Positions 1 through 13,339 of a stretch of DNA of 13,468 bases are shown here, piece after piece. The notes under the pieces are model-generated. The model was not told the origin of the DNA and made no database searches. It was given only the letters and a program-made list of their open reading frames with translations. The stretch covers positions 1 to 13,468 of the IMG/VR virus record IMGVR_UViG_2526164634_000015; one strand, 5' to 3'. Position numbers and translations under genes: made by a program. Within the stretch, counting starts at the first letter, position 1; each line of letters opens with the position of its first letter. The DNA is from a virus. Lineage: Duplodnaviria > Heunggongvirae > Uroviricota > Caudoviricetes.

Positions 1-317
1 TCGTTGCCGGCGTTACCGATATGTGTAAATCCTTCAACGGACTGGGAGAACAGGTACAACATGTGCTGAATGATAATCCCTTCTCCGGTCACCTGTTTAT
101 CTTCCGTGGCCGACGGGGGGACACCGTTAAAATTCTTTGGGCTGATGCTGATGGTCTGTGCCTGTTCACCAAACGCCTGGAGGAAGGCCAGTTTATCTGG
201 CCTGCGGTGCGTGACGGTAAGGTATCCATTACCCGCTCGCAACTGGCAATGCTCCTCGATAAGCTGGACTGGCGTCAGCCAAAAACATCCCGCCTTAACG
301 CCCTGACAATGTTGTAA
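1..317 (+). CDS. tnpB: IS66-family accessory protein TnpB (orf2), 5'-partial at window edge
   Basis: Translation ...VAGVTDMCKSFNGLGEQVQHVLNDNPFSGHLFIFRGRRGD...LCLFTKRLEEGQFIWP aligns along its length with the second TnpB copy at 1963-2310 (roughly 65% identical by eye); the reading frame is open back to base 1. Confidence 0.85.
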   Translation, partial: VAGVTDMCKSFNGLGEQVQHVLNDNPFSGHLFIFRGRRGDTVKILWADADGLCLFTKRLEEGQFIWPAVRDGKVSITRSQLAMLLDKLDWRQPKTSRLNALTML

Positions 318-341
318 AAAACACCTGGCCGCATTATAAAA
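1..341 (+). mobile_element. Truncated IS66-family element: 3' part of tnpB only, no orf3 and no terminal repeat; ends where the next IS begins
   Basis: TnpB-like ORF runs in frame from the window edge to a stop at 317; only 24 bp follow before the GTAA terminus of the adjacent element at 342. The expected downstream transposase gene is absent. Confidence 0.6.
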
Positions 342-363
342 GTAAGCGGCTCGTCAGAACCGT
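342..363. repeat. Terminal inverted repeat of the IS66-family element (transposase-proximal end)
   Basis: Begins 5'-GTAAGCG, the start I recall as typical of IS66-family termini; pairs with 3019-3040. Confidence 0.7.
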
Positions 364-371
364 ATTGATAT

Positions 372-1943
372 TTACTGAGAGCTCAGATCAACTTTCCAGG
401 GCAACAGATCGCGTACCCGGTTTGCCGGCCAGTCCTGGATATGTTCAATGACGTAGCGCAGCCACTTTTCTGGCTCCACATTGTTCAGACGGCATGTGCC
501 GATCAGCGAGTACAACACCGCCGCATGTTCACCATCGCTGTCGGAACCCGCGAACATCCAGTTTTTCCGGCCTACGGCCACTCCCCGTAAGGCGTTCTCT
601 GCGATGTTGTTGTCGATTTCCACCCAGCCATTACTGCAGTACACGTTCAGTGCATCCCACTGTTTCAGCAGGTATGCGAACGCTTTTGCCGTATCTGAGT
701 GACGCGACAGTGTTTTCATCTGTTGCTGTATCCAGTCATACAGTGACTGCATCAGTGGCGCGGCTCTGGTTTTTCTTGCCGCCAGACGCTGTTCTGCTGA
801 ACAGCCCCGGACCTCTGCCTCGATGGCATACAGTTCACCGATACGCTGCAGGGCTTCCGTGGTGATGTCGGTGGGCGCTCTTGCATGCACATCGTGGATT
901 TTTCTCCGGGCATGAGCCATACACGCGGCTTCCGTTATTCTGCCGGATTCGTATAACGCCCGGTAACCACCGTAAGCATCGGCCTGAAGCACACCGCTGT
1001 AACCGGCCAGGTGATTTTGTGGATGGATACCTTTCCGGTCCGGACTGTACGCGAACCAGACCGCCGGGGGCATCTGTGAACCGGCGTTACGGTCATCACG
1101 GACGTAGACCCACAGCCGGGCTGTCCGGGTTTACCGCTGCCCGGCTCCTGGACCGGGACGGGGATATCATCAGCATGGACTTTACCGGGCATCAGCACAT
1201 ACTGGCGCAGGACGTCATACTGCGGCTCCAGTAGTTCAGCAACGGCACCAGTCCAGCGCCCCAGTGTGGCACGGCTCAGCTCCACACCCTGACGGCGGTA
1301 TATCTCTGACTGGCGGTATAACGGCAGATGGTCTGCATATTTTCCGGTGACGACATGGGCCAGGAGCCCCGCTCCGGCATAACTGCGTGCAATGGGTTTT
1401 GAAGGCACCGGTGCCTGCACGATATGGTCGCACCGGCAACAGGCCAGTTTCGGACGTTGTGTTTCGATAACCTTAAAGGCGCTGCTGATAAGCTCCAGTT
1501 GCTCTGACACATCACATCCCAGAGAACTGAGTTCACCACCACAGGCAGGACAGCATTCCTCTTCCGGTCCGGATAACCCGGGTTTCACGGGGAAGTGAGG
1601 CCGGTAACGGTTTACGGGCTGAAGACTGGCGCAGGGCGGATGGCAGTACCGGGTCATATTGCTCACCCAGCGTTTCCGCCATTTCTTCCTGAAGTGCGCT
1701 GATTCGCTCCTGTGCTTCCTGTATCTGCCGTTCGGTTTTTGCACGAAGTTTTTCTGAGCTTTTACCGAACTGCATACGTTGCAGTTTCGCAACCAGCACC
1801 TTCAGCCGGTTGATTTCGGAAGCATAAGCCGCCACCCGCTGTGAGAGCAGGCGGTTGTATTCAGCCATCTGGCGTATGGTGTCCTGTTGCGTCTGCAACA
1901 GTGCCCGCAGGCGGGCGTTCTCATGAGCAAGTGAGGTGTCCAT
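372..1943 (-). pseudogene. tnpC: IS66-family transposase (orf3/TnpC) split over three reading frames by two single-base indels
   Basis: N-terminal leucine-zipper segment (ORF 1533-1943: MDTSLAHENARLRALLQ...), zinc-finger and middle segment (inside ORF 935-1792: PEEECCPACGGEL...[16 protein letters not shown]) and DDE C-terminal segment (ORF 372-1073: [15 protein letters not shown]...) are consecutive parts of one transposase in three frames. Frame switches lie near 1555-1580 and 1095-1130. Confidence 0.8.
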
Positions 1944-1962
1944 ATCCTCACTTTACAACGGG

Positions 1963-2310
1963 TTATATGCGGATTCCAGCGCGTTCCGTTCGTTTCGGGT
2001 GCTTCCAGTTGATACCTTCAAGAAGCATGGATAACTGAGCCGGAGTAAGGTGCACCTTGCCGTCACGGGTGACTGGCCAGACGAAGCGGCCCCGCTCCAG
2101 GCGTTTGGTGAAGAGGCACAGTCCGTCACTGTCAGCCCACAACACTTTTATCTGGTCACCCCGGCGTCCGCGGAAGATGAACAGGTGTCCGGAGAACGGG
2201 TCATCCTTCAGGACGTTCTGAACTTTTGATGCCAGGCCGTTAAAACCATTTCGCATATCGGTGATACCGGCAACCAGCCAGATACGCGAACCGGCAGGGA
2301 GAGATATCAT
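1963..2310 (-). CDS. tnpB: IS66-family accessory protein TnpB (orf2)
   Basis: 115-aa ORF MISLPAGSRIWLVAGITDMRNGFNGLASKVQNVLKDDPFSGHLFIFRGRRGD..., a recognisable IS66 Orf2; start overlaps the tnpA stop (ATGA). Confidence 0.9.
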   Translation of the reverse strand: MISLPAGSRIWLVAGITDMRNGFNGLASKVQNVLKDDPFSGHLFIFRGRRGDQIKVLWADSDGLCLFTKRLERGRFVWPVTRDGKVHLTPAQLSMLLEGINWKHPKRTERAGIRI

Positions 2311-2987
2311 CAGTGGCTGCTCCCTTTCATTTCGCGGATAAGTGTCTGTAATAACGCCGGCGTCAGTTTACCTTTAAGCCTGAGAGTTCCGGCCGGCAGA
2401 ATCAGCTCACAACACAGACTGTCGGACGGTGTATTTATCTGCTCTGGTTCCTGTGCGGGGGCCGGGATTTTATTATCCGGCTCCGGCGTTAACGTCACGG
2501 GAAGCAGTACCGGCATATTTTTTCCGGAAGGCAGCAGGCCACCTTTCCGGTATTGATGGCGCCAGTTGAAGAGCAGGTTATCGTTGATTCCGTTTTCCCG
2601 GGCGATCTGCGCCACACAGGCTCCGGGCTGCAGTGACTGCTCCACTAAGGCGATTTTAAACTCATAAGGGAAGTTGGGCCGCCGGGGACGTTTTTTTATC
2701 ACGGGGGCTTCGGATATAACGGTGTTTTCAGGACGTACGACTGGTACCGTGGAAAATTGTCCGTAAAGGCAGGCATCAAGTTCCTGCTCCGACATGCCTG
2801 CGGGCAAAGGCCACGAAAGGCCAGCTCTCCGAAAGCGCACGAACATATTACAAACTGTTGATTTTGGTACACCCAGGCGACGCCCGGCCACAACCCGGGG
2901 TAAATGTTCTTCAAAGTGAAGACGTAAAGCTTCAGTGATCCAGGTCCGGTGTTTCATACGATAGTGTCCATTAAAAATGATGGACAT
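2310..2987 (-). CDS. tnpA: IS66-family accessory protein TnpA (orf1), long form with two helix-turn-helix-like regions; true start may be an internal Met
   Basis: C-terminal half (RPRRPNFPYEFKIALVEQSLQPGACVAQIARENGINDNLLFNWRHQYRKGG) looks like an IS66 Orf1 / IS3-type HTH; lies inside the IS about 53 bp from the 3040 terminus and is coupled to tnpB. Confidence 0.75.
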   Translation of the reverse strand: MSIIFNGHYRMKHRTWITEALRLHFEEHLPRVVAGRRLGVPKSTVCNMFVRFRRAGLSWPLPAGMSEQELDACLYGQFSTVPVVRPENTVISEAPVIKKRPRRPNFPYEFKIALVEQSLQPGACVAQIARENGINDNLLFNWRHQYRKGGLLPSGKNMPVLLPVTLTPEPDNKIPAPAQEPEQINTPSDSLCCELILPAGTLRLKGKLTPALLQTLIREMKGSSH

Positions 2988-3018
2988 TATTTTTGTAGAG
3001 CCGGAGGAAACAGACCAG

Positions 3019-3040
3019 ACGGTTTAAATGAGCCGGTTAC
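3019..3040. repeat. Terminal inverted repeat of the IS66-family element (tnpA-proximal end)
   Basis: ...AGCCGGTTAC ends at 3040; its reverse complement starts GTAACCGGCTC and pairs with 342-363. Confidence 0.7.
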
Positions 3041-3051
3041 GATAAATATCC

Positions 3052-3585
3052 ATGAACACCAAAATCAAATACGGCCTGTCGGCTGCCGTTCTGGCGCTGA
3101 TTGCCGCTGGTGCGTCTGCGCCTGACATTCTCGATCAGTTTCTGGATGAAAAGGAAGGCAATCACACCACGGCATACCGTGATGGTGCAGGTATCTGGAC
3201 CATCTGCCGTGGTGCCATCATGGTGGATGGCAAACCTGTCGTTCCGGGCATGAAGTTGTCGAAGGAAAAATGCGACCAGGTTAACGCCATTGAGCGTGAT
3301 AAAGCGCTGGCGTGGGTGGAGAAAAACATCAAAGTGCCATTGAGCGAACCCCAGAAAGCGGGGATCGCGTCATTCTGTCCGTACAACATTGGTCCCGGTA
3401 AGTGTTTCCCGTCGACGTTTTATAAACGAATTAATGCAGGTGATCGCAGGGGAGCGTGTGAGGCGATTCGCTGGTGGATTAAGGACGGTGGCAGAGACTG
3501 CCGTATTCGTTCAAACAACTGCTACGGTCAGGTATCCCGTCGTGACCAGGAGAGCGCGCTGGCGTGCTGGGGTATCGACAGATAA
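3052..3585 (+). CDS. Phage endolysin, T4-lysozyme-like (GH24) with an N-terminal signal-anchor-release (SAR) type hydrophobic segment
   Basis: 177-aa ORF; N-terminus MNTKIKYGLSAAVLALIAAGASAP is a weakly hydrophobic Ala/Gly-rich segment; E-x8-D-x5-T catalytic spacing in EGNHTTAYRDGAGIWT; followed by Rz/Rz1 as in lambdoid lysis cassettes. Confidence 0.9.
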   Translation: MNTKIKYGLSAAVLALIAAGASAPDILDQFLDEKEGNHTTAYRDGAGIWTICRGAIMVDGKPVVPGMKLSKEKCDQVNAIERDKALAWVEKNIKVPLSEPQKAGIASFCPYNIGPGKCFPSTFYKRINAGDRRGACEAIRWWIKDGGRDCRIRSNNCYGQVSRRDQESALACWGIDR

Positions 3586-3675
3586 GCAGAATATTTTGCT
3601 GAAAAATAAAGCATGGCCACGCGGGCGGATAACATGAAATCCTGCGAACTGGCGAAACGTAAGTGAATAAAAGTA

Positions 3676-3712
3676 AAAACCCCGTTTGTTGGCACCAAGC
3701 GGGGTTTTGTGT
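3676..3712 (+). terminator. Intrinsic (rho-independent) terminator downstream of the endolysin gene
   Basis: AAAA-CCCCGTTTG-(loop)-CAAGCGGGG-TTTTGTGTTT: GC-rich stem of about 9 bp followed by a T-run, with an A-run upstream so it could act in both directions. Confidence 0.6.
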
Positions 3713-3744
3713 TTCCTGACTCCGGAAAAGTCAAAGGAGAAAGT

Positions 3745-3882
3745 GTGTTTGATTTTAGCAAACTGATTCGGGAGATTCGAGTGATGGCTGAAAAATTATC
3801 CACCTGGAAGTTCATTCTTATCTGGCTGGTGTTTGTGATTATGGCCTCCGGTTATTTCATCGGTCAGATACGCTGGTGGTGA
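3745..3882 (+). CDS. Small predicted single-pass membrane protein (45 aa from GTG 3745, or 32 aa from ATG 3784), stop overlapping the Rz start region
   Basis: AGGAG at 3734-3738 lies 6 nt before the GTG; translation [45 protein letters not shown] has one hydrophobic helix; its TGA (3880-3882) is 1 nt before the Rz ATG (3884). Too short to appear in the ORF track. Confidence 0.35.
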
Positions 3883-3883
3883 A

Positions 3884-4348
3884 ATGAACCGCGTACTGTG
3901 CGTAGTCATCATTGCCCTGCTGGTGGCCTGTGGTGCGCTTAGTCTGGGGCTGAATCATTACCGTGATAACGCCATTACCTACAAAGCCCAGCGCGACAAA
4001 AATGTCAGAGAACTGAAGCTGGCGAACGCGGCAATTACTGACATGCAGATGCGTCAGCGTGATGTTGCTGCGCTCGATGCAAAATACACGAAGGAGTTAG
4101 CTGATGCGAAAGCTGAAAATGATGCTCTGCGTGATGATGTTGCCGCTGGTCGTCGTCGGTTGCACATCAAAGCAGTCTGTCAGTCAGTGCGTGAAGCCAC
4201 CACCGCCTCCGGCGTGGATAATGCAGCCTCCCCCCGACTGGCAGACACCGCTGAACGGGATTATTTCACCCTCAGAGCGCGACTGATAATAATGCAAAAA
4301 CAACTTGAAGGGGCACAGCTATACATTCGAGAGCAATGCCTCAGATAA
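3884..4348 (+). CDS. Rz: Spanin inner-membrane subunit Rz (i-spanin)
   Basis: 154 aa; N-terminal TM helix ([20 protein letters not shown]) then a charged coiled-coil-like region; contains the embedded Rz1 frame; follows the endolysin. Confidence 0.85.
4104..4286 (+). CDS. Rz1: Spanin outer-membrane lipoprotein subunit Rz1 (o-spanin), embedded in the +1 frame of Rz
   Basis: 60 aa; signal peptide with lipobox (LVVVGC) and Pro-rich mature part (PPPPPAW...PPPDW); entirely inside Rz in another frame, the classic Rz/Rz1 arrangement. Confidence 0.8.
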
Positions 4349-4655
4349 AAACCGGCCAAGGATAATCCGCTGAAGATTCGCCGGTGGCTAAAGTGTGCCA
4401 AGAGTTCAATTTACGCAATTACTCCAGTCGATGCTATGCACCGTCTTTGTGAAGTCAATGGATACCTGATTTATTTCTGTGCGCTGTATCGTCGCTGTAC
4501 TCTTGCATTAATTATGACTGTAGCCTGACGGGGAACTCCTTCTGCACAAGTGTGGGGGAATAATCAAAAACGATGCACACCGGGGTTACCGGGTACACAT
4601 ATTTCATCATGCCAGCGAGTCCGGTTCTGGCACGGAAGAAACCGGACGTTATGAT

Positions 4656-5081
4656 TTAGTGCGGAAATATTTGTGTAGTGTTCTGAATGTTCTCAGTAAA
4701 GAGTAATGAATTATCAAAGGTATAGTAATACCTTTTGTTTTCGTGGATATTTGTAATCCATCTGAAAACCCCTGCTGTAGCAAGATTTTTCCTGTATTCG
4801 TAAAATGATAACTCTCCTGATTTGAATCCTTTTAAGGTGGCTTCTATAAGGCATTTATTTTTTGAAAATCTTACATTTACAACCTTACCCTGTCCTTTTA
4901 TTAAAACCGTATTATCGTTTTCAAGAACAAGATGAATATTCTCTGTGGCTAAATAGTAAATGTAATGTGAGACATTGTGACGTTTTAGTTCAGAATAAAA
5001 CCAGTGATAGTTTAAATTATTTCGCACTTTATCGAATATTTGTTTAAAAATGGCAACCTGAGCCATTGTAGTACCTTCCAT
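4656..5081 (-). CDS. AT-rich moron gene; hypothetical protein, tentatively DUF1398 family (YbcV/YdfO-like) from memory
   Basis: 141-aa ORF in a segment of about 33% GC (by eye), far below neighbouring phage genes; position between Rz1 and cos/terS matches where I recall ybcV/ydfO-like genes in E. coli K-12 cryptic prophages. Start may be the internal Met (MAQVAIF...). Confidence 0.6.
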
Positions 5082-5123
5082 GTGATATGAGGGGGCGTAG
5101 TCTGCACGATTATCTAAATTGCT

Positions 5124-5357
5124 TCAATCTGGTCTGACCTGTTTTCTGAGCAATTCAGTAATGTCACTCTTTTCTTTGTTTGCTTCAGGCGAAACTCTTT
5201 TTACTGAGCACAGTCTCCGGCGGCAGGCTTCAATGACCCAGGCTGAGAAATTCCCGGACCCTTTTTGAACAAGAGCGATGTTAATTTGTTCAATCATCTG
5301 GTTTGGAAATCGGATGTTGCGGGTTGTTGTTCTGCGGGTTCTGTTCTTTGATGACAT
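5124..5357 (-). CDS. Small ribbon-helix-helix-like protein, tentatively DUF3950 family (YlcI/YnfO-like) from memory
   Basis: 77-aa ORF with a basic N-terminus followed by TRNIRFPNQMIEQINIALVQKGSGNFSAWVIEACRRRL, an RHH-like strand-helix-helix pattern; co-oriented 42 bp upstream of the 141-aa gene. Confidence 0.55.
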   Translation of the reverse strand: MSSKNRTRRTTTRNIRFPNQMIEQINIALVQKGSGNFSAWVIEACRRRLCSVKRVSPEANKEKSDITELLRKQVRPD

Positions 5358-5563
5358 AATGTTTCCCCATATTCAGTGTTGCTGATTTGTATTATCTGAA
5401 GTTGCTTTTACGTTAATTTGACGCAGATCAATCAATACGATACCTGCGTCATAATTGATTATTTCTCGTGGTTTGATGGCGTACACACATGTTGTGATAA
5501 ACCTTATATAGATGATAATCATTATCATTTCGTGGGTCCTTTCCGGCGATCCGGGCCGTTACG

Positions 5564-5575
5564 GGGCGGCGACCT
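5564..5575 (+). other. cosN cohesive-end sequence (12-nt GGGCGGCGACCT) of a lambda-type cos site
   Basis: 5358-5608 reads like the junction of the lambda right and left genome ends (...GATGATAATCATTATCA...CCGTTACG | GGGCGGCGACCT | CGCGGGTTTTCGCTATTTATGAAAATTTTCCGG) as I recall them, immediately upstream of the small terminase gene. Confidence 0.85.
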
Positions 5576-5758
5576 CGCGGGTTTTCGCTATTTATGAAAA
5601 TTTTCCGGGATCCATGTCCGGTTTCTCTTCAAGTTAACTATATGAAAAATATAAAAACAGGTCTTCTGTGAACCGGACATGAACAAAAAACAGACATGTA
5701 AACCGGACATGACCGGTTTTGTTGTGATTGTGAGGTGAGAGTTTTTGCGAGGTGAGGA
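5576..5758 (+). promoter_or_regulatory. cosB-like terminase binding region: one inverted and two direct copies of an AACCGGACATG motif flanking an A/T-rich candidate IHF site
   Basis: CATGTCCGGTT at 5613-5623 (inverted), AACCGGACATG at 5671-5681 and 5701-5711 (direct, 30 bp apart), A/T-rich stretch 5631-5660 between the inverted and direct copies; parallels the lambda R3-I1-R2-R1 layout with a different motif. Confidence 0.65.
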
Positions 5759-6268
5759 GTGGCTACGCAGACTGAAGTTGCCAGGCATTTAAGTCTGACC
5801 GATCGCCAGCTTCGCAGATTGCAGAAATTGCCGGGTGCCCCGATATCGAATAAGCGAGGGCAACTGGATCTGGATGCCTGGCGCGATTTTTACATATCGT
5901 ATCTGAGGAGAAGTAAAAACGATGTGCCTGATGGCGATAGCGAAGACGACTATGAGGAGAAATTGCTTATTGCCAGATGGGAACTGACAGCAGAACAGGC
6001 TGTTACACAGCAGTTAAAAAATGAGGTGTCAAAAGGAAAACTTATTGACACCGGGTTCTGTATTTTTGCCCTCAGTAAGCTGGCAATGGCGTTATCCAGT
6101 ACGCTTGATTCCATCCCTTTATCCATGCAGCGACAGTTTCCTGATTTAACACCGCGCCATCTTGACCATCTGAAAACCCTTATTGCGAAGGGGGCAAATC
6201 AGTGTGCGCGGGCAGGGGATAAATTACCGGATTTACTCGATGAATATATCAGAGCAACAACTGAATAA
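5759..6268 (+). CDS. Terminase small subunit (Nu1-like DNA-recognition subunit), GTG start
   Basis: 169 aa; N-terminal HTH-like TQTEVARHLSLTDRQLRRL; sits directly after cosB and overlaps the terL start by 29 nt, as Nu1/A do in lambda; GAGG 6-7 nt upstream of the GTG. Confidence 0.75.
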   Translation: MATQTEVARHLSLTDRQLRRLQKLPGAPISNKRGQLDLDAWRDFYISYLRRSKNDVPDGDSEDDYEEKLLIARWELTAEQAVTQQLKNEVSKGKLIDTGFCIFALSKLAMALSSTLDSIPLSMQRQFPDLTPRHLDHLKTLIAKGANQCARAGDKLPDLLDEYIRATTE

Positions 6269-8167
6269 TATGGTGGCCGCCGTTTCGGTTGCGCTGCAGC
6301 CTCTGGTCAGGGTTGTACCGATGACGGCAGTTGAATGGGCTGACCAGTATTATTATCTGCCGAAAGAATCCTCATACGGTGACGGCGAATGGAAAACGCT
6401 GCCGTTCCAGATCGCCATCATGAACAGTATGGGGAATGATCAGATCCGCACTGTTAATCTGATTAAATCTGCCCGTGTTGGCTATACAAAGATGTTGCTG
6501 GGAGTCGCCGGGTATTTTATTGAGCATAAATCCCGAAACAGTCTGCTTTTTCAGCCCACGGATTCTGCCGCTGAAGATTTTATGAAGTCTCACGTGGAGG
6601 CGACGATTCGGGACGAGCCATGCCTGAAAGATCTTTCCCCGTGGCTGGGTCGTAAACATCGTGACAATACTCTCACGCTGAAACGCTTTTCATCGGGGGT
6701 GGGCTTCTGGTGCCTGGGTGGTGCGGCAGCAAAAAACTACCGTGAAAAATCCGTGGACGTGGTCTGCTATGACGAACTTTCCTCGTTCGAGCCGGATGTC
6801 GAAAAAGAGGGCTCGCCAACCCTGCTGGGGGATAAGCGTATTGAGGGCTCGGTATGGCCAAAATCCATTCGCGGCTCGACGCCTAAAATAAAAGGCTCCT
6901 GCCAGATCGAAAAAGCGGCCAACGAGTCGGCGCATTTCATGCGTTTTTATGTGTCCTGCCCGCACTGTGGGGAGGCGCAGTATCTGAAATTTGGCGATGA
7001 GTCCACGCCTTTTGGCCTTAAATGGGAGAAGGACAGCCCCGAAAGCGTTTTCTACCTCTGTGAACATCATGGCTGCGTGATCCATCAGTCTGAGCTTGAC
7101 CAGAGCAACGGGCGGTGGATCTGCGAAAACACGGGCATGTGGACCCGCGACGGTCTGACGTTTTTCAGCGCCCGGATAATGAAATTCCGCCGCCGCGCTC
7201 CATCACATTTCATATCTGGACGGCGTACAGTCCGTTCACCACCTGGGTACAGATTGTCTATGACTGGCTGGATGCACTGAAAGATCCCAACGGCCTGAAA
7301 ACCTTTGTGAACACCACGCTGGGCGAGACCTGGGAAGAGGCCGTGGGCGAAAAACTCGATCACCAGGTGCTGATGGATAAGGTTGTGCGTTACACGGCTG
7401 CGGTGCCTTCCCGGGTGGTTTATCTGACGGCGGGCATTGACTCGCAGCGAAACCGTTTTGAGATGTATGTCTGGGGATGGGCTCCGGGAGAGGAAGCCTT
7501 TCTGGTGGATAAAATCATCATTATGGGGCGTCCCGATGAGGAAGAGACGCTGTTACGTGTGGATGTGGCGATCAACAAAAAATACCGCCATGCAGACGGA
7601 ACCGAAATGACCATTTCCCGTGTCTGCTGGGACACCGGGGGGATCGATGGCGAAATTGTCTATCAGAGGTCAAAAAAACACGGTGTTTTCCGGGGGCTGC
7701 CGGTAAAAGGTGCATCTGTTTATGGCAAGCCGGTGATCACCATGCCAAAAACCCGCAATCAGCGGGGCGTGTATCTGTGCGAAGTGGGGACGGACACCGC
7801 AAAAGAAATTCTCTATGCCCGTATGAAAGCCGATCCCACGCCTGCGGATGAAGCCACGTCGTATGCCATCCGTTTTCCTGATGATCCGGAGATTTTTTCG
7901 CAGACAGAGGCGCAGCAACTGGTGGCGGAAGAGCTGGTGGAGAAGTGGGAAAAAGGAAAGATGCGTCTGCTGTGGGATAACAAAAAGCGGCGTAACGAAG
8001 CGCTGGACTGCCTGGTGTATGCCTACGCGGCATTACGTGTGTCCGTGCAACGCTGGCAGCTTGATCTGGCTGTACTGGCAAAATCCCGGGAAGAAGAGAC
8101 GACCCGGCCAACCCTGAAAGAACTGGCAGCGAAGCTGTCCGGAGGAGTGAATGGTTACAGTCGCTGA
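6240..8167 (+). pseudogene. A: Terminase large subunit (lambda gpA-like), interrupted by a -1 frameshift near 7170-7175
   Basis: ORF 6183-7280 (real start MNISEQQLNNM at 6240) matches the gpA N-terminal half as I recall it (TAVEWADQYYYLPKES..., GYTKMLLGVAGYFIEHK, KRFSSGVGFWCLGGAAAKNYREKSVDV); ORF 7115-8167 in another frame continues with ITFHIWTAYSPFTTWVQIV...KRRNEALDCLVYAYAALR. One base appears missing in the GCCCGG run around 7170-7175. Confidence 0.85.
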
Positions 8168-8357
8168 ACTGCAGGCGCTGCGTCAGGCGCGCCTTGATTT
8201 ATTAACCGGTAAACGGGTGGTGTCTGTCCAGAAAGATGGTCGCAGAATTGAATATACGGCGGCTTCTCTGGATGAGCTTAACCGGGCGATCAATGATGCG
8301 GAGTCGGTACTGGGGACAACCCGACGTCGCCGTCGTCCGCTGGGAGTGAGGTTATGA
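8151..8357 (+). CDS. W: Head completion / head-tail joining protein (lambda gpW-like)
   Basis: 68 aa, MVTVAELQALRQARLDLLTGKRVVSVQKDGRRIEYTAAS..., close to lambda W as I recall it; stop overlaps the portal start. Confidence 0.85.
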   Translation: MVTVAELQALRQARLDLLTGKRVVSVQKDGRRIEYTAASLDELNRAINDAESVLGTTRRRRRPLGVRL

Positions 8358-9946
8358 AACGAACGCCTGTCCTGATTGATGTGAACGGCGTTCCGCTTCG
8401 TGAGAGTCTCAGCTACAACGGGGGCGGCGCAGGATTTGGCGGGCAAATGGCGGAGTGGTTGCCACCGGCGCAGAGTGCCGATGCAGCCCTGCTGCCTGCG
8501 TTGCGTCTGGGGAATGCCCGGGCAGATGATCTGGTGCGCAATAACGGAATAGCGGCTAATGCGGTGGCCCTGCATAAGGATCACATTGTCGGGCATATGT
8601 TTCTGATCAGCTACCGTCCGAACTGGCGCTGGCTGGGGATGCGGGAGACCGCAGCAAAAAGCTTTGTCGATGAGGTGGAGGCGGCCTGGTCGGAATACGC
8701 AGAAGGGATGTCTGGCGAGATCGACGTGGAAGGAAAACGCACATTTACGGAGTTTATCCGTGAAGGTGTTGGCGTTCATGCGTTTAACGGCGAAATCTTT
8801 GTGCAGCCGGTCTGGGATACGGAAACCACGCAGTTATTCCGTACGCGTTTTAAAGCCGTGAGTCCGAAACGGGTGGACACGCCAGGACACGGTATGGGGA
8901 ACCGTTTTCTGCGGGCCGGGGTGGAGGTCGATCGATATGGCCGTGCCGTTGCGTACCATATCTGTGAGGATGATTTTCCTCGCTCCGGGAGTGGACGATG
9001 GGAACGGATCCCGCGTGAACTTCCCACCGGGCGTCCGGCCATGCTGCATATTTTCGAGCCGGTGGAGGACGGGCAGACCCGTGGGGCCAATCAGTTTTAC
9101 AGCGTCATGGAACGGCTGAAGATGCTCGATTCCCTGCAGGCAACACAGCTTCAGTCGGCCATAGTGAAGGCGATGTATGCAGCGACGATTGAAAGTGACC
9201 TTGATACCGAAAAGGCCTTTGAATATATCGCCGGCGCGCCACAGGAGCAGAAGGATAATCCGCTTATTAATATTCTGGAGAAGTTCTCCAGCTGGTATGA
9301 CACGAATAACGTGACACTGGGCGGTGTCAAAATTCCGCACCTTTTCCCTGGTGATGATCTGAAACTACAGACTGCGCAGGATTCAGACAATGGATTTTCG
9401 GCGCTTGAACAGGCGCTGCTGCGGTATATCGCCGCCGGTCTTGGCGTTTCCTACGAACAGTTGTCCCGGGATTACTCGAAGGTCAGTTATTCAAGTGCCC
9501 GCGCCTCCGCCAATGAGTCGTGGCGCTATTTTATGGGACGACGAAAATTTATTGCGTCCCGGCTGGCCACGCAGATGTTTTCCTGCTGGCTGGAAGAGGC
9601 ACTTCTTCGGGGGATTATTCGTCCGCCACGGGCGCGTTTTGATTTTTATCAGGCGCGATCAGCCTGGTCACGGGCTGAGTGGATTGGAGCCGGAAGAATG
9701 GCCATTGACGGGCTCAAGGAGGTTCAGGAATCGGTGATGCGCATTGAGGCCGGACTGAGCACGTATGAGAAAGAGCTGGCGCTGATGGGCGAGGATTATC
9801 AGGACATTTTCCGCCAGCAGGTCAGGGAATCTGCAGAGCGGCAAAAAGCCGGACTCTCACGTCCGGTGTGGATAGCGCAGGCGTATCAGCAGCAGATAGC
9901 GGAGAGTCGCAGGCCGGAAGAGGAGACAACACCCCGTGAGACGTAA
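8354..9946 (+). CDS. B: Portal protein (lambda gpB-like)
   Basis: 530 aa, collinear with my recollection of lambda gpB over the whole length (GGGAGFGGQ..., NARADDLVRNNG, FEPVEDGQTRGAN, LQSAIVKAMYAATIES, GRMAIDGLKEVQE); no frame disruption. Confidence 0.9.
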   Translation: MKRTPVLIDVNGVPLRESLSYNGGGAGFGGQMAEWLPPAQSADAALLPALRLGNARADDLVRNNGIAANAVALHKDHIVGHMFLISYRPNWRWLGMRETAAKSFVDEVEAAWSEYAEGMSGEIDVEGKRTFTEFIREGVGVHAFNGEIFVQPVWDTETTQLFRTRFKAVSPKRVDTPGHGMGNRFLRAGVEVDRYGRAVAYHICEDDFPRSGSGRWERIPRELPTGRPAMLHIFEPVEDGQTRGANQFYSVMERLKMLDSLQATQLQSAIVKAMYAATIESDLDTEKAFEYIAGAPQEQKDNPLINILEKFSSWYDTNNVTLGGVKIPHLFPGDDLKLQTAQDSDNGFSALEQALLRYIAAGLGVSYEQLSRDYSKVSYSSARASANESWRYFMGRRKFIASRLATQMFSCWLEEALLRGIIRPPRARFDFYQARSAWSRAEWIGAGRMAIDGLKEVQESVMRIEAGLSTYEKELALMGEDYQDIFRQQVRESAERQKAGLSRPVWIAQAYQQQIAESRRPEEETTPRET

Positions 9947-11440
9947 TCTTTCACACATTATTGCCGCAGCATTCAATGAACCGCTGCTTCTGGAGCCCGC
10001 CTATGCGCGGGTTTTCTTTTGCGCGCTCGGGCGCGAGATGGGGCAGCAAGTCTTTCGGTACCACAGCAGCAGGTACAGCTTGATGCTCCCGGAATGCTGG
10101 CTGAAACGGACGAGTACATGGCCGGAGGTAAACGACCGGCCCGTGTTTACCGGGTGGTGAACGGTATTGCTGTACTGCCGGTGACCGGCACGCTGGTGCA
10201 CCGGCTGGGGGGTATGCGGCCATTTTCCGGAATGACAGGCTATGACGGTATTGTCGCCTGTCTTCAGCAGGCAATGGCGGATAGCCAGGTGCGGGGCGTA
10301 CTGCTGGACATTGACAGTCCGGGCGGGCAGGCCGCCGGCGCGTTTGACTGCGCTGACATGATTTACCGCCTCCGTCAGCAGAAGCCGGTCTGGGCACTGT
10401 GCAATGACACGGCCTGTTCTGCAGCCATGCTGCTGGCATCGGCCTGCTCCCGACGGCTGGTTACCCAGACATCCCGTATCGGCTCCATTGGCGTGATGAT
10501 GAGCCATGTCAGCTATGCCGGTCATCTGGCGCAGGCCGGTGTGGATATCACGCTGATTTACTCAGGGGCGCACAAGGTGGATGGCAATCAGTTTGAAGCC
10601 TTACCGGCAGAGGTTCGCCAGGACATGCAGCAGCGCATTGATGCGGCGCGCCGGATGTTTGCCGAAAAAGTGGCGATGTTTACCGGTCTGTCTGTTGATG
10701 CCGTCACGGGAACAGAGGCCGCCGTTTTTGAAGGTCAGTCCGGCATTGATGCCGGGCTGGCGGATGAATTAGTCAATGCGTCGGATGCCATCAGTGTGAT
10801 GGCCACGGCGCTGAACAGTAATGTCAGAGGAGGCACTATGCCGCAATTAACTGCAACGGAAGCCGCCGCGCAGGAGAACCAGCGAGTGATGGGGATCCTG
10901 ACATGCCAGGAAGCGAAAGGACGTGAACAGCTTGCCACGATGCTGGCAGGACAACAGGGCATGAGCGTTGAACAGGCCCGGGCGATTCTGGCCGCGGCGG
11001 CACCGCAGCAGCCGGTGGCATCCACGCAGAGTGAAGCCGATCGCATTATGGTGTGTGAAGAAGCGAACGGTCGTGAACAACTGGCGGCAACGCTGGCGGC
11101 GATGCCGGAGATGACGGTGGAAAAAGCCCGCCCGATCCTGGCTGCTTCACCGCAGGCGGATGCCGGACCCTCACTCCGTGATCAGATCATGGCACTGGAT
11201 GAGGCAAAAGGGGCTGAGGCGCAGGCTGAACAGCTGGCTGCCTGCCCGGGAATGACTGTGGAGAGCGCCCGGGCTGTGCTGGCTGCGGGATCAGGTAAGG
11301 CAGAACCGGTCTCTGCATCCACAACCGCCCTGTTTGAACGCATCATGGCGAACCATTCACCGGCTGCGGTACAGGGTGGCGTGCCACAGACGTCAGCAGA
11401 CGGTGATGCGGACGTGAAAATGCTCATGGCCATGCCATGA
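9936..11440 (+). pseudogene. C: Head maturation protease / scaffold (lambda gpC-Nu3-like, S49 peptidase family), -1 frameshift near 10040-10075; C-terminal scaffold-like part holds three protein-level repeats
   Basis: GTG start at 9936 gives ...LSHIIAAAFNEPLLLEPAYARVFFCALG (gpC-like N-terminus) and then runs into a stop; the rest of gpC (VNGIAVLPVTGTL..., LDIDSPGG, PVWALCND, SIGVMMSHV) is in ORF 10019-11440 in another frame. Confidence 0.8.
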
Positions 11441-11881: not shown

Positions 11882-12913
11882 ATGGGATTGTTTACGACCC
11901 GCCAGTTACTCGGTTATACCGAACAAAAAGTGAAATTTCGTGCGCTGTTTCTGGAGCTGTTTTTCCGCCGTACGGTGAATTTCCATACCGAAGAGGTGAT
12001 GCTGGACAAAATTACCGGAAAAACGCCGGTGGCGGCCTATGTCTCCCCGGTTGTTGAAGGAAAAGTGCTGCGTCATCGCGGTGGTGAAACCCGCGTGTTA
12101 CGTCCGGGCTACGTCAAGCCGAAACACGAATTTAATTACCAGCAGGCGGTTGAGCGTCTTCCCGGTGAAGAGTCCGGCTCAGCTGAACGACCCGGCCTAC
12201 CGTCGTCTGCGTATCATCACTGATAACCTCAAACAGGAAGAGCACGCCATTGTCCAGGTGGAAGAAATGCAGGCGGTGAATGCCGTGCTGTATGGCAAAT
12301 ACACGATGGAAGGAGACCAGTTCGAGAAAATTGAGGTCGATTTTGGCAGGTCGACGAAGAATAACATCACTCAGGGTAGTGGTAAGGAGTGGTCAAAAAC
12401 AGGATCGTGACACGTTCGATCCTACACATGATCTTGACCTACTACTGCGACCAGGCCAGCGGTCTTGTGAATATTGCCATTATGGACGGTACCGTCTGGC
12501 GTCTGCTGAATGGCTTTAAATTGTTCCGCGAAAAACTGGATACCCGTCGCGGCTCTAATTCGCAACTCGAAACAGCGGTGAAAGACCTGGGCGCGGTGGT
12601 GTCCTTCAAAGGGTATTACGGCGATCTGGCCATTGTGGTGGCAAAAACGTCTTATGTGGCAGAGGACGGTACCGAAAAACGTTATCTGCCTGAGGGCTCG
12701 CTGGTCCTGGGGAATACGGCAGCAGAGGGCATTCGTTGCTATGGTGCCATTCAGGATGCGCAGGCGTTGTCCGAAGGTGTGGTGGCCTCTTCCCGTTATC
12801 CGAAACACTGGCTGACGGTAGGGGATCCCGCCCGTGAATTTACCATGACGCAGTCCGCGCCGCTGATGGTGTTGCCGGACCCGGATGAGTTTGTGGTGGT
12901 ACAGGTGAAATAA
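11882..12913 (+). pseudogene. E: Major capsid protein (lambda gpE-like) interrupted by three +1 single-base insertions (about 12173, 12395, 12440) that together restore the original frame
   Basis: Segments in four ORFs (11882-12223, 12039-12410, 12280-12519, 12389-12913) each match consecutive stretches of gpE as I recall it (KPKHEFNYQQ..., DPAYRRLRII...VEEMQAV..., DTFDPTHD, ...KLDTRRGSNS...SRYPKHWLTVGDPAREFTMTQSAPLMVLPDPDEFVVVQV). Confidence 0.85.
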
Positions 12914-12918
12914 TCCGT

Positions 12919-12950
12919 GAGCGGGGGCGAAATGCCCCCGTGTCTTTTTT
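12919..12950 (+). terminator. Stem-loop with T-run directly after the capsid gene; candidate intrinsic terminator or attenuator
   Basis: GCGGGGGC-GAAAT-GCCCCCG followed by TGTCTTTTTTC, between the E stop and the FI start. Confidence 0.45.
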
Positions 12951-12964
12951 CACAGGGGGATGAT

Positions 12965-13339
12965 ATGGCAACGAAAGAGCAAAATCTGAAACGGTTTGAT
13001 GAACTGGCCCTGATTCTGGGGCGTGAGCCGGATATATCCGGGAGTGCCGCAGAGATAGCGCAGCGGGTGGCAGAATGGGAAGAGGAAATGCAGTCATCCG
13101 GCGATGATGTACAGGTTATGAATATGGATATCCGGGAGAGGGAAAACGCGGCTCATGATGTTCGTGAGGAAACATCCGGCGCGTTAACGCGCATCAGAGT
13201 TCTGACCTGCCTCCATCTCTGTGGCGTTGATGGTGAAACGGGGGAATCCGTTGAGCTTGCGGATGTTGGTCGGGTGATTCTGATTATGTCCTCAGATGCA
13301 AAAACACACGTTGATGGTGGAATGGCTGTTTATGCGTGA
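12965..13339 (+). CDS. FI: DNA packaging protein (lambda gpFI-like)
   Basis: 124 aa from the ATG at 12965 (GGGGGA RBS-like run just upstream); acidic protein in the gpFI position between E and FII; sequence similarity to lambda FI is weak, so the call rests mainly on synteny. Confidence 0.6.
   Translation: MATKEQNLKRFDELALILGREPDISGSAAEIAQRVAEWEEEMQSSGDDVQVMNMDIRERENAAHDVREETSGALTRIRVLTCLHLCGVDGETGESVELADVGRVILIMSSDAKTHVDGGMAVYA

What the first reader, a model, noticed from the sequence alone, without database searches (positions are those of the whole stretch)
3041..4348. Lysis cassette without a holin: SAR endolysin, Rz and Rz1 sit directly behind an IS end
Lambdoid lysis cassettes run holin-endolysin-Rz/Rz1 from the late promoter. 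Here the endolysin start is 11 bp from the IS terminus, no holin or pinholin ORF precedes it in the window, and the adjacent IS genes point away from it. The endolysin has an intact SAR-like N-terminus and catalytic triad and Rz/Rz1 are intact, so the lytic enzymes are preserved but probably uncoupled from their trigger and promoter. That could be a domesticated, lysis-defective remnant, or a source of SAR endolysin under other control.
Basis: partly seen in the sequence, partly recalled or inferred. Interest (0 to 1): 0.5.

Follow-up and report, generated by a model that had tools for sequence, protein, structure and literature searches.

The report
IS-split prophage lysis cassette, draft contig
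An ordinary insertion sequence sits 11 bp in front of a prophage lysozyme gene, at the spot where close relatives carry the holin, but the window is a whole draft contig whose left part is all repeat DNA, so whether the holin is really lost cannot be decided.

Summary
An ISCro1 element (IS66 family, 342-3040, genes on the minus strand) ends exactly at 3040. An intact lysozyme gene starts at 3052, followed by intact Rz and Rz1. No holin, ydfR or esterase DNA is present anywhere in the window.

The lysozyme is 93% identical to phage 933W R and has the E35/D44/T50 triad and a weakly hydrophobic N-terminus. In E. coli O111:H2 strain 12A the same DNA (100% identical over 3041-6615) is preceded by esterase, a 71-aa class II holin and ydfR.

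The window is the entire contig AIHD01000037.1 of a draft assembly. Everything left of 3041 is repeat DNA that matches a nested-IS locus next to efa1/lifA, 2.4-2.9 Mb away in 12A and in direct orientation. The IS has no target-site duplication here.

The likeliest reading is a recent simple IS insertion between ydfR and R, with the holin on another contig and the left join made through the repeat. A real deletion or rearrangement is the main rival. Nothing supports domestication. IS-disrupted lambdoid prophages are well known, so interest is low.

The parts
1..341 (+). Fragment of an older IS66-family element (3' part of its tnpB, ending at 317). It is cut at 341/342 by ISCro1.
   Evidence: Pfam TnpB_IS66. 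The same junction occurs in one piece next to efa1/lifA in strain 12A, where tnpC of the older element continues on the far side of ISCro1 with the duplication TTATAAAA.
342..3040 (-). ISCro1 (IS66 family), 2,699 bp. Imperfect terminal inverted repeats at 342-361 (GTAAGCGGCTCGTCAGAACC) and 3021-3040 (reverse complement GTAACCGGCTCATTTAAACC).
   Evidence: 98.7-98.8% identical to annotated ISCro1 copies, and all but 4 positions identical to the 12A efa1-island copy. The 8-bp flanks differ, so this copy has no target-site duplication.
372..1943 (-). ISCro1 transposase gene tnpC, broken into three frames by a 1-bp deletion near 1129 and a 1-bp insertion at 1568.
   Evidence: Pfam DDE_Tnp_IS66 and LZ_Tnp_IS66 on the fragments; indels mapped against 12A.
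1963..2310 (-). ISCro1 tnpB
   Evidence: Pfam TnpB_IS66, E 5e-40.
2310..2987 (-). ISCro1 tnpA, transcribed away from the lysozyme gene.
   Evidence: Pfam HTH_Tnp_1; annotated as IS66-like accessory protein TnpA in relatives.
3041..3051 (+). The 11-bp remainder of the ydfR-R spacer, GATAAATATCC. Positions 3041-3048 would be the target duplication if the insertion is simple.
   Evidence: Alignment with the empty site in 12A and elppa4.
3052..3585 (+). R: GH24-type lysozyme with a SAR-like N-terminus (933W R / phage 21 R type).
   Evidence: Pfam Phage_lysozyme; phrog_7 endolysin; in-register match to PDB 3HDE and 4ZPU; 93% identity to 933W R and 100% to the 12A protein; E35/D44/T50 present and no Cys in residues 1-30.
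3676..3708 (+). Terminator-like hairpin between R and Rz: 13-bp stem followed by TTTTGTGTTT.
   Evidence: Pattern scan; fold of -18.9 kcal/mol, stem conserved and loop variable in diverged relatives.
3745..3882 (+). Conserved 45-codon ORF with a GTG start after AAGGAG and a C-terminal hydrophobic segment. Its stop overlaps the Rz start. Function unknown.
   Evidence: phrog_6632, unknown function; called in several assemblies; mostly synonymous differences between relatives.
3884..4348 (+). Rz (i-spanin), intact.
   Evidence: Pfam Phage_lysis, E 1e-52; phrog_13 over its full length; the DNA is 100% identical to 12A.
4104..4286 (+). Rz1 (o-spanin lipoprotein), embedded in Rz in the +1 frame, with lipobox VVGC.
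   Evidence: Pfam Rz1, E 5e-20; phrog_3198; sequence.

Best explanation
This is the lysis region of a lambda-like prophage with a 933W/phage-21-type cassette: class II holin, ydfR, SAR-type endolysin R, a small ORF, and Rz/Rz1. An ISCro1 element has transposed into the ydfR-R spacer, 11 bp upstream of the R start codon.

The most likely real structure is a recent, simple insertion. The holin and ydfR would then lie intact on the far side of the 2.7-kb IS, on another contig of this draft assembly. The 341 bp at the contig's left end belong to the efa1/lifA-island copy of the same IS variant and were probably joined on through the repeat during assembly.

In that structure the cassette is split but still lies in one late transcription unit. 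RNA polymerase modified by the Q antiterminator at the late promoter would read antisense through the IS, and through the hairpin at 3676-3708, into R, Rz and Rz1. Lysis would still be triggered by the holin.

Shown: the exact IS terminus, the intact genes, what relatives carry upstream, the mismatched flanks, and that the window is a whole contig.

Inferred: that the holin is on the other side, that the left join is an assembly product, and that read-through occurs.
For: Exact IS end at 3040 and homology breakpoint at 3041.

Relatives carry esterase, holin and ydfR directly upstream of the same R. This holds for all ten contexts returned for the identical R protein, each of which has a 71-aa Phage_holin_2_1 gene.

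Window 3041-6615 is 100% identical to the uninterrupted 12A cassette, so the event is very recent.

The window is the entire contig AIHD01000037.1.

Window 1-3040 differs at only 4 positions from the 12A efa1-island locus. The IS shares all of that copy's variant-specific SNPs from 349 to 2848.

Both 12A loci match on the plus strand, at 1.915 and 4.833 Mb. A true join of left flank A to right flank B would therefore require a 2.4-Mb deletion or a 2.9-Mb duplication.

There are about 7 single-base indels but only 2 substitutions in the first 6.6 kb, which points to a low-quality consensus.

Other genomes have simple IS insertions inside this cassette that keep the holin: an IS66-family element between holin and R in L019, IS21 upstream of the holin in L015, and ISCro1 upstream of the holin in L003 and L005.

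Sakai Sp5 has an IS upstream of its lysis region and still transfers (PMC2669165).
Against: I could not read any other contig of the assembly, so the holin side was never seen.

The contig as deposited joins the IS to non-phage DNA, and the assembler may have had mate-pair support for that.

IS-mediated rearrangements are common in IS-rich EPEC/EHEC genomes, and the chromosome arrangement of the source strain is unknown.

Read-through of an IS by Q-modified polymerase is established for lambda-type antitermination in general. It was not tested here.
Confidence: 0.55

Rival explanations
1. The contig is correct, and IS-mediated deletion or recombination between two ISCro1 copies has removed or relocated the holin, ydfR and the late promoter. 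R, Rz and Rz1 would then be a promoterless, holin-less remnant. They would normally be silent. If transcribed from outside, the SAR endolysin could still export itself through Sec and cause slow, asynchronous lysis without a holin. Non-antiterminated transcripts would probably stop at the 3676-3708 hairpin before reaching Rz/Rz1.
For: The contig as assembled has non-phage DNA to the left of the IS. This IS copy has no target-site duplication. No promoter-like site faces R on the plus strand of 2800-3052. There is a conserved hairpin between R and Rz. SAR endolysins are released spontaneously at a low rate when a holin is absent, giving later and broader lysis (PMC9239132).
Against: With a 12A-like chromosome, the two flanks are direct repeats 2.4/2.9 Mb apart, so the required event is a lethal deletion or a giant duplication. 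The left side of the contig is wholly repeat DNA and the consensus quality is poor. A missing duplication is also what a join across two identical IS copies would produce.
Confidence: 0.3
2. The IS-lysozyme junction itself is an assembly or read chimera, and the real genome has the uninterrupted 12A-type cassette.
For: The draft contig has many single-base errors and is built largely from repeats. The junction is absent from 5,426 complete E. coli genomes, from the species-representative genomes and from viral contigs.
Against: The join falls exactly at the last base of the IS, as defined by three independent copies with target duplications. A random chimera would hardly do that. The target is an AT-rich 8-mer like the other ISCro1 targets seen here (TTATAAAA, GTTTTTAC).
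Confidence: 0.08
3. A domesticated module: the host keeps a holin-independent SAR endolysin plus spanin under some other control, for example for autolysis or vesicle release.
For: Only that the three genes are intact and that a SAR endolysin needs no holin for export.
Against: The DNA is 100% identical to an uninterrupted cassette over 3.5 kb, so intactness reflects recency rather than selection. The junction is private to one draft assembly. No promoter is evident. A terminator-like hairpin separates R from Rz/Rz1.
Confidence: 0.03

Closest known systems
Lysis cassette of Stx phage 933W and lambdoid phage 21 (class II holin/pinholin S, SAR endolysin R, Rz/Rz1)
   Same: R is 93% identical to 933W R, with identical residues 7-24, and it aligns in register with PDB 3HDE and RrrD 4ZPU. 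3HDE is the phage 21 R structure from my own memory; the PDB entry is named only 'Lysozyme'. Rz/Rz1 are embedded as in lambda and 933W. The sister strain's holin is 99% identical to 933W S and keeps its M1/M4 double start.
   Different: No holin gene precedes R in this contig; an ISCro1 end does. Relatives of this prophage also carry ydfR between S and R, and a 45-codon ORF where 933W has ant.
Uninterrupted prophage of E. coli O111:H2 strain 12A (NZ_CP077479.1, about 1.915 Mb)
   Same: 100% identical over window 3041-6615 and 99.4% over 3041-10398, with the same gene order from R to the portal gene and beyond.
   Different: 12A has esterase, holin and ydfR where the window has ISCro1. 12A lacks the single-base indels that break terL and the capsid gene.
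IS-interrupted lambdoid prophages of EHEC/EPEC (e.g. Sakai Sp5 with an IS upstream of its lysis region; Sp4 with an IS in nu1)
   Same: An IS sits in the late region of a lambdoid prophage in an IS-rich pathogenic E. coli (PMC2669165). Other genomes carry ISCro1, IS21 or another IS66-family element in or beside the same cassette.
   Different: This insertion site, 11 bp upstream of R, was not seen in any other genome searched. The far flank of the IS is not phage DNA in the contig.
Holin-less SAR-endolysin lysis of phage Mu (gp22 with the releasin gp25)
   Same: It would be a SAR-type endolysin plus a two-component spanin with no holin in front, if the holin is truly gone (PMC9239132).
   Different: Mu's arrangement is an evolved system with a dedicated releasin (DUF2730). 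Here the holin is missing through an IS event, and no releasin homologue was found. The 45-aa ORF matches only a PHROG of unknown function.

Membership tests
SAR endolysin (GH24 lysozyme, phage 21 R / 933W R type) | Lysozyme catalytic triad E-X8-D-X5-T | tested here: met
   E35, D44 and T50 are present and align in register with PDB 3HDE and 4ZPU. Pfam Phage_lysozyme, E 2e-24.
SAR endolysin (GH24 lysozyme, phage 21 R / 933W R type) | N-terminal weakly hydrophobic segment rich in Gly/Ala/Ser after a short basic N-terminus | tested here: met
   K4 and K6 are followed by YGLSAAVLALIAAGASAP. The best 17-mer has mean Kyte-Doolittle 1.8 and 53% G/A/S/T, against 2.5-2.95 for the ordinary hydrophobic segments of orf45 and Rz. 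The segment is identical to that of 933W R, which is listed as a SAR endolysin in PMC9239132.
SAR endolysin (GH24 lysozyme, phage 21 R / 933W R type) | Sec-dependent export, membrane tethering in an inactive form, and release on depolarisation or by a pinholin | not testable with these tools
   This needs expression of R with and without S21-68 or DNP, as in PMC9239132.
Phage 21/933W-type lysis cassette | Class II holin (pinholin-type) gene directly upstream in the same late transcription unit | tested here: not met
   No holin-like sequence anywhere in the window. It is present in all relatives examined. Whether it lies across the IS in the real genome is unknown.
Phage 21/933W-type lysis cassette | Two-component spanin with Rz1 embedded in Rz | tested here: met
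   Pfam Rz and Rz1 hits, with Rz1 at 4104-4286 inside Rz at 3884-4348 in another frame.
ISCro1 / IS66 family insertion sequence | tnpA-tnpB-tnpC gene order with terminal inverted repeats beginning GTAA | tested here: met
   Pfam HTH_Tnp_1, TnpB_IS66 and DDE_Tnp_IS66. 98.7-99.9% identity to annotated ISCro1 copies. tnpC carries two frameshifts in this consensus.
ISCro1 / IS66 family insertion sequence | 8-bp target-site duplication flanking a simple insertion | tested here: not met
   Flanks are TTATAAAA and GATAAATA. Reference copies have GGATAACG/GGATAACG and GTTTTTAC/GTTTTTAC. This is expected if the two flanks come from two different copies.
Domesticated (selected) prophage remnant | Retention of the rearranged arrangement across strains, or signs of selection after the disrupting event | tested here: not met
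   The junction is absent from 5,426 complete E. coli genomes and two other collections. There are zero substitutions against the intact cassette over 3.5 kb.

The most novel reading that the evidence does not exclude
The holin and late promoter are truly gone, and the strain retains a holin-independent SAR endolysin (with or without the spanin) that is expressed from a host or IS-derived promoter, as a stochastic autolysis or vesiculation module.
Probability: 0.03. Interest if true: 0.45.

Novelty: already known. Interest (0 to 1): 0.12.

Why it matters
It matters little beyond this strain. The case shows how IS elements split prophage late operons in IS-rich pathogenic E. coli. It also shows how a draft contig that ends in repeats can look like a "holin-less" cassette.

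One biological point is worth keeping. Because R is a SAR-type endolysin, loss of its pinholin would not make it harmless. If transcribed, it could still lyse the cell slowly. Whether the prophage is lysis-competent therefore depends on where the holin and the late promoter actually are.

Tried and rejected
1. Exact 38-bp junction searched in the species-representative genomes and in viral contigs: no match.
2. megablast of the junction region against 5,426 complete E. coli genomes: no record spans it; the best hits start at 3041.
3. Recovering the source contig to see further upstream: it is exactly the window.
4. Reaching the holin/ydfR contig of the same assembly:
   - The YdfR homologue search returned only cluster representatives from other assemblies.
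   - The frameshifted tnpC fragment occurs only on this contig.
5. Identifying the strain and assembly method from the literature: the accession search was uninformative and the collection paper is not held. My recollection that AIHD belongs to the DEC diarrheagenic E. coli draft set is unverified.
6. A hybrid or outward promoter at the IS end: none found on the plus strand of 2800-3052. The AT-rich 11-bp spacer lies too close to the ATG to serve as one (sequence).
7. orf45 as a hidden holin: rejected as unsupported. It has no Pfam hit and matches only a PHROG of unknown function. It also co-occurs with a bona fide holin in every relative.
8. An inversion between IS copies as the origin of the junction: rejected for a 12A-like chromosome, because the two loci are in direct orientation.
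The in-register comparison rests.

Full report
**What is in the window**

The window is the late region of a lambda-like prophage preceded by insertion-sequence DNA.
- Positions 342-3040 are a 2,699-bp ISCro1 element of the IS66 family. Its genes tnpA (2310-2987), tnpB (1963-2310) and tnpC (372-1943) are all on the minus strand.
- Positions 1-341 are the 3' part of tnpB of a different, older IS66-family element on the plus strand.
- To the right come a lysozyme gene (3052-3585), a 298-bp spacer, Rz (3884-4348) with Rz1 embedded (4104-4286), two small minus-strand genes, then terminase, portal, protease, decoration and capsid genes.

**Check of the observation**

The IS ends at 3040 to the base.
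- Three other ISCro1 copies start with GTAAGCG and end with CCGGTTAC. Two are visibly flanked by 8-bp duplications, GGATAACG in L003 and GTTTTTAC in L004.
- Homology of the window to uninterrupted prophages begins exactly at 3041.
- Eleven bases (GATAAATATCC) lie between the IS and the ATG.

The lysozyme has E35, D44 and T50 and aligns in register with PDB 3HDE and with RrrD, 4ZPU. From my own memory, 3HDE is the phage 21 R structure; the entry itself is named only "Lysozyme".
- It is 93% identical to 933W R and shares residues 7-24 with it exactly.
- 933W R is listed as a SAR endolysin construct in PMC9239132.
- The N-terminal segment is weakly hydrophobic and rich in Gly/Ala/Ser, unlike the stronger hydrophobic segments of Rz and of the 45-codon ORF.
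- There is no cysteine in the first 30 residues. If it is a SAR enzyme, it is therefore of the phage 21 type and not the P1 disulfide-caged type. This last point is inference from established knowledge.

Rz and Rz1 are full-length. No trace of a holin, ydfR or the upstream esterase exists in the window.

**What should be upstream**

The closest uninterrupted relative is a prophage of E. coli O111:H2 strain 12A. It is 100% identical to the window from 3041 to 6615 and 99.4% identical to 10398.
- There the order is SASA-family esterase, a 71-aa class II holin, ydfR, lysozyme, Rz.
- That holin is 99% identical to 933W S and keeps its M1/M4 double start.
- All ten long-contig contexts returned for the identical R protein carry a Phage_holin_2_1 gene upstream.

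The IS therefore sits exactly where the holin side of the cassette should continue.

**Why the absence of the holin cannot be read at face value**

1. The window is the whole of contig AIHD01000037.1 (13,468 bp) from draft assembly GCA_000250275.2. There is no "full contig" to inspect.
2. Everything left of 3041 is repeat DNA.
3. This ISCro1 copy has different 8-bp flanks, TTATAAAA and GATAAATA, so the two flanks do not come from one simple insertion.
4. Window 1-3040 differs at only four positions from a locus next to efa1/lifA in strain 12A. There, the same ISCro1 variant is simply inserted in the older IS66-like element, with the duplication TTATAAAA. The window's IS shares all that copy's variant-specific SNPs from 349 to 2848.
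5. In 12A the island locus (4.833 Mb) and the prophage (1.915 Mb) both match the window on the plus strand. Two IS copies at these places would be direct repeats. Joining the left flank of one to the right flank of the other then needs a 2.4-Mb deletion or a 2.9-Mb duplication, not an inversion.
6. The contig has about seven single-base indels: near 1129 and at 1568 in tnpC, 7172 in terL, 10039, and 12172 plus others in the capsid gene. Against this there are only two substitutions in the first 6.6 kb relative to 12A. That pattern fits consensus error in a repeat-rich draft better than gene decay.

**Most likely structure and how it would work**

I consider the right junction real, because it falls precisely on the IS terminus.

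The most economical history is this. The efa1-island ISCro1 variant transposed into the ydfR-R spacer, giving two identical 2.7-kb copies. The assembler then connected the island's left flank to the prophage's right flank. The holin and ydfR would sit just across the IS on another contig.

In that case the cassette remains within one late operon. Q-modified polymerase, which ignores terminators, would traverse the IS antisense and pass the conserved hairpin at 3676-3708. This is established knowledge of lambdoid antitermination and was not tested here.

Precedents exist.
- Sakai Sp5 carries an IS upstream of its lysis region and is still transferable (PMC2669165).
- Other genomes hold an IS66-family element between holin and R (L019), IS21 upstream of the holin (L015), or ISCro1 upstream of the holin (L003, L005).

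I give this reading about 0.55.

**Rivals**

It remains possible at about 0.3, because I could not see any other contig of the assembly.
- If it is true, R, Rz and Rz1 are promoterless. No sigma-70-like site faces R from the IS end.
- Any stray, non-antiterminated transcript would probably stop at the hairpin before reaching Rz.
- Because R is a SAR-type enzyme, it would not need a holin for export. SAR endolysins release spontaneously at a low rate when a holin is absent, giving later, less synchronous lysis (PMC9239132).

A pure chimera at the IS-R junction is unlikely, at about 0.08, given the base-exact terminus.

Domestication has no support, at about 0.03. The cassette is identical to an intact one, and the junction is private to this assembly among 5,426 complete genomes.

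**Comparison with what is known, and verdict**

The genes belong to the well-studied 933W/phage-21 lysis type. The disruption belongs to the well-documented class of IS-interrupted lambdoid prophages in pathogenic E. coli. Nothing here is a new kind of system.

The finding is a correct reading of the sequence. Its biological interpretation cannot be decided from a contig that is bounded by repeats. Interest is low at 0.12, and the novelty class is "already known".

Noticed in passing
window 3745-3882 (+): A conserved 45-codon ORF lies between R and Rz. It has a GTG start after AAGGAG, its stop overlaps the Rz ATG, and it has a C-terminal hydrophobic segment. It matches only phrog_6632 (unknown function). 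It is conserved with mostly synonymous changes in diverged prophages, and it occupies the slot where 933W has ant.
   Followed up: partly
window 3676-3708 (+): A strong terminator-like hairpin (-18.9 kcal/mol) lies inside the lysis cassette between R and Rz. The stem is conserved and only the loop varies among relatives. It implies that Rz/Rz1 expression depends on antitermination.
   Followed up: partly
window 1129, 1568, 7172, 10039, 12172, about 12395-12441: Single-base indels break tnpC, terL, the N-terminus of the protease/scaffold gene and the major capsid gene. Substitutions against strain 12A are almost absent in the same stretch. These are probably draft consensus errors rather than pseudogenes.
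   Followed up: partly
window 1-341, and L006 (NZ_CP077479.1, 4.826-4.841 Mb): The left end of the contig matches a nested-IS structure (ISCro1 inside an older IS66-like element, beside IS2, IS100 and efa1/lifA) in O111:H2 strain 12A. The match indicates an EPEC O111:H2-like source strain.
   Followed up: yes
L003 5007-7705; L005 6922-9620; L004 6622-9320; L015; L019: IS elements lie at several different sites in or beside this type of lysis cassette in other genomes. ISCro1 lies 20 bp upstream of the holin in about 100 chromosomes at the same locus, which are probably one clone. ISCro1 also lies downstream of Rz (L004), IS21 lies upstream of the holin (L015), and another IS66-family element lies between holin and R (L019).
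   Followed up: partly
window 12300-13300: Identity to the 12A prophage drops sharply across the 3' part of the capsid gene and the FI-like packaging gene. This is a mosaic boundary typical of lambdoid prophages.
   Followed up: no
P0012 (ENA contig, 149 aa): This YdfR variant is 100% identical to the 12A allele for about 104 residues and then continues into unrelated sequence. It suggests yet another insertion or rearrangement at the 3' end of ydfR in a metagenome contig.
   Followed up: no
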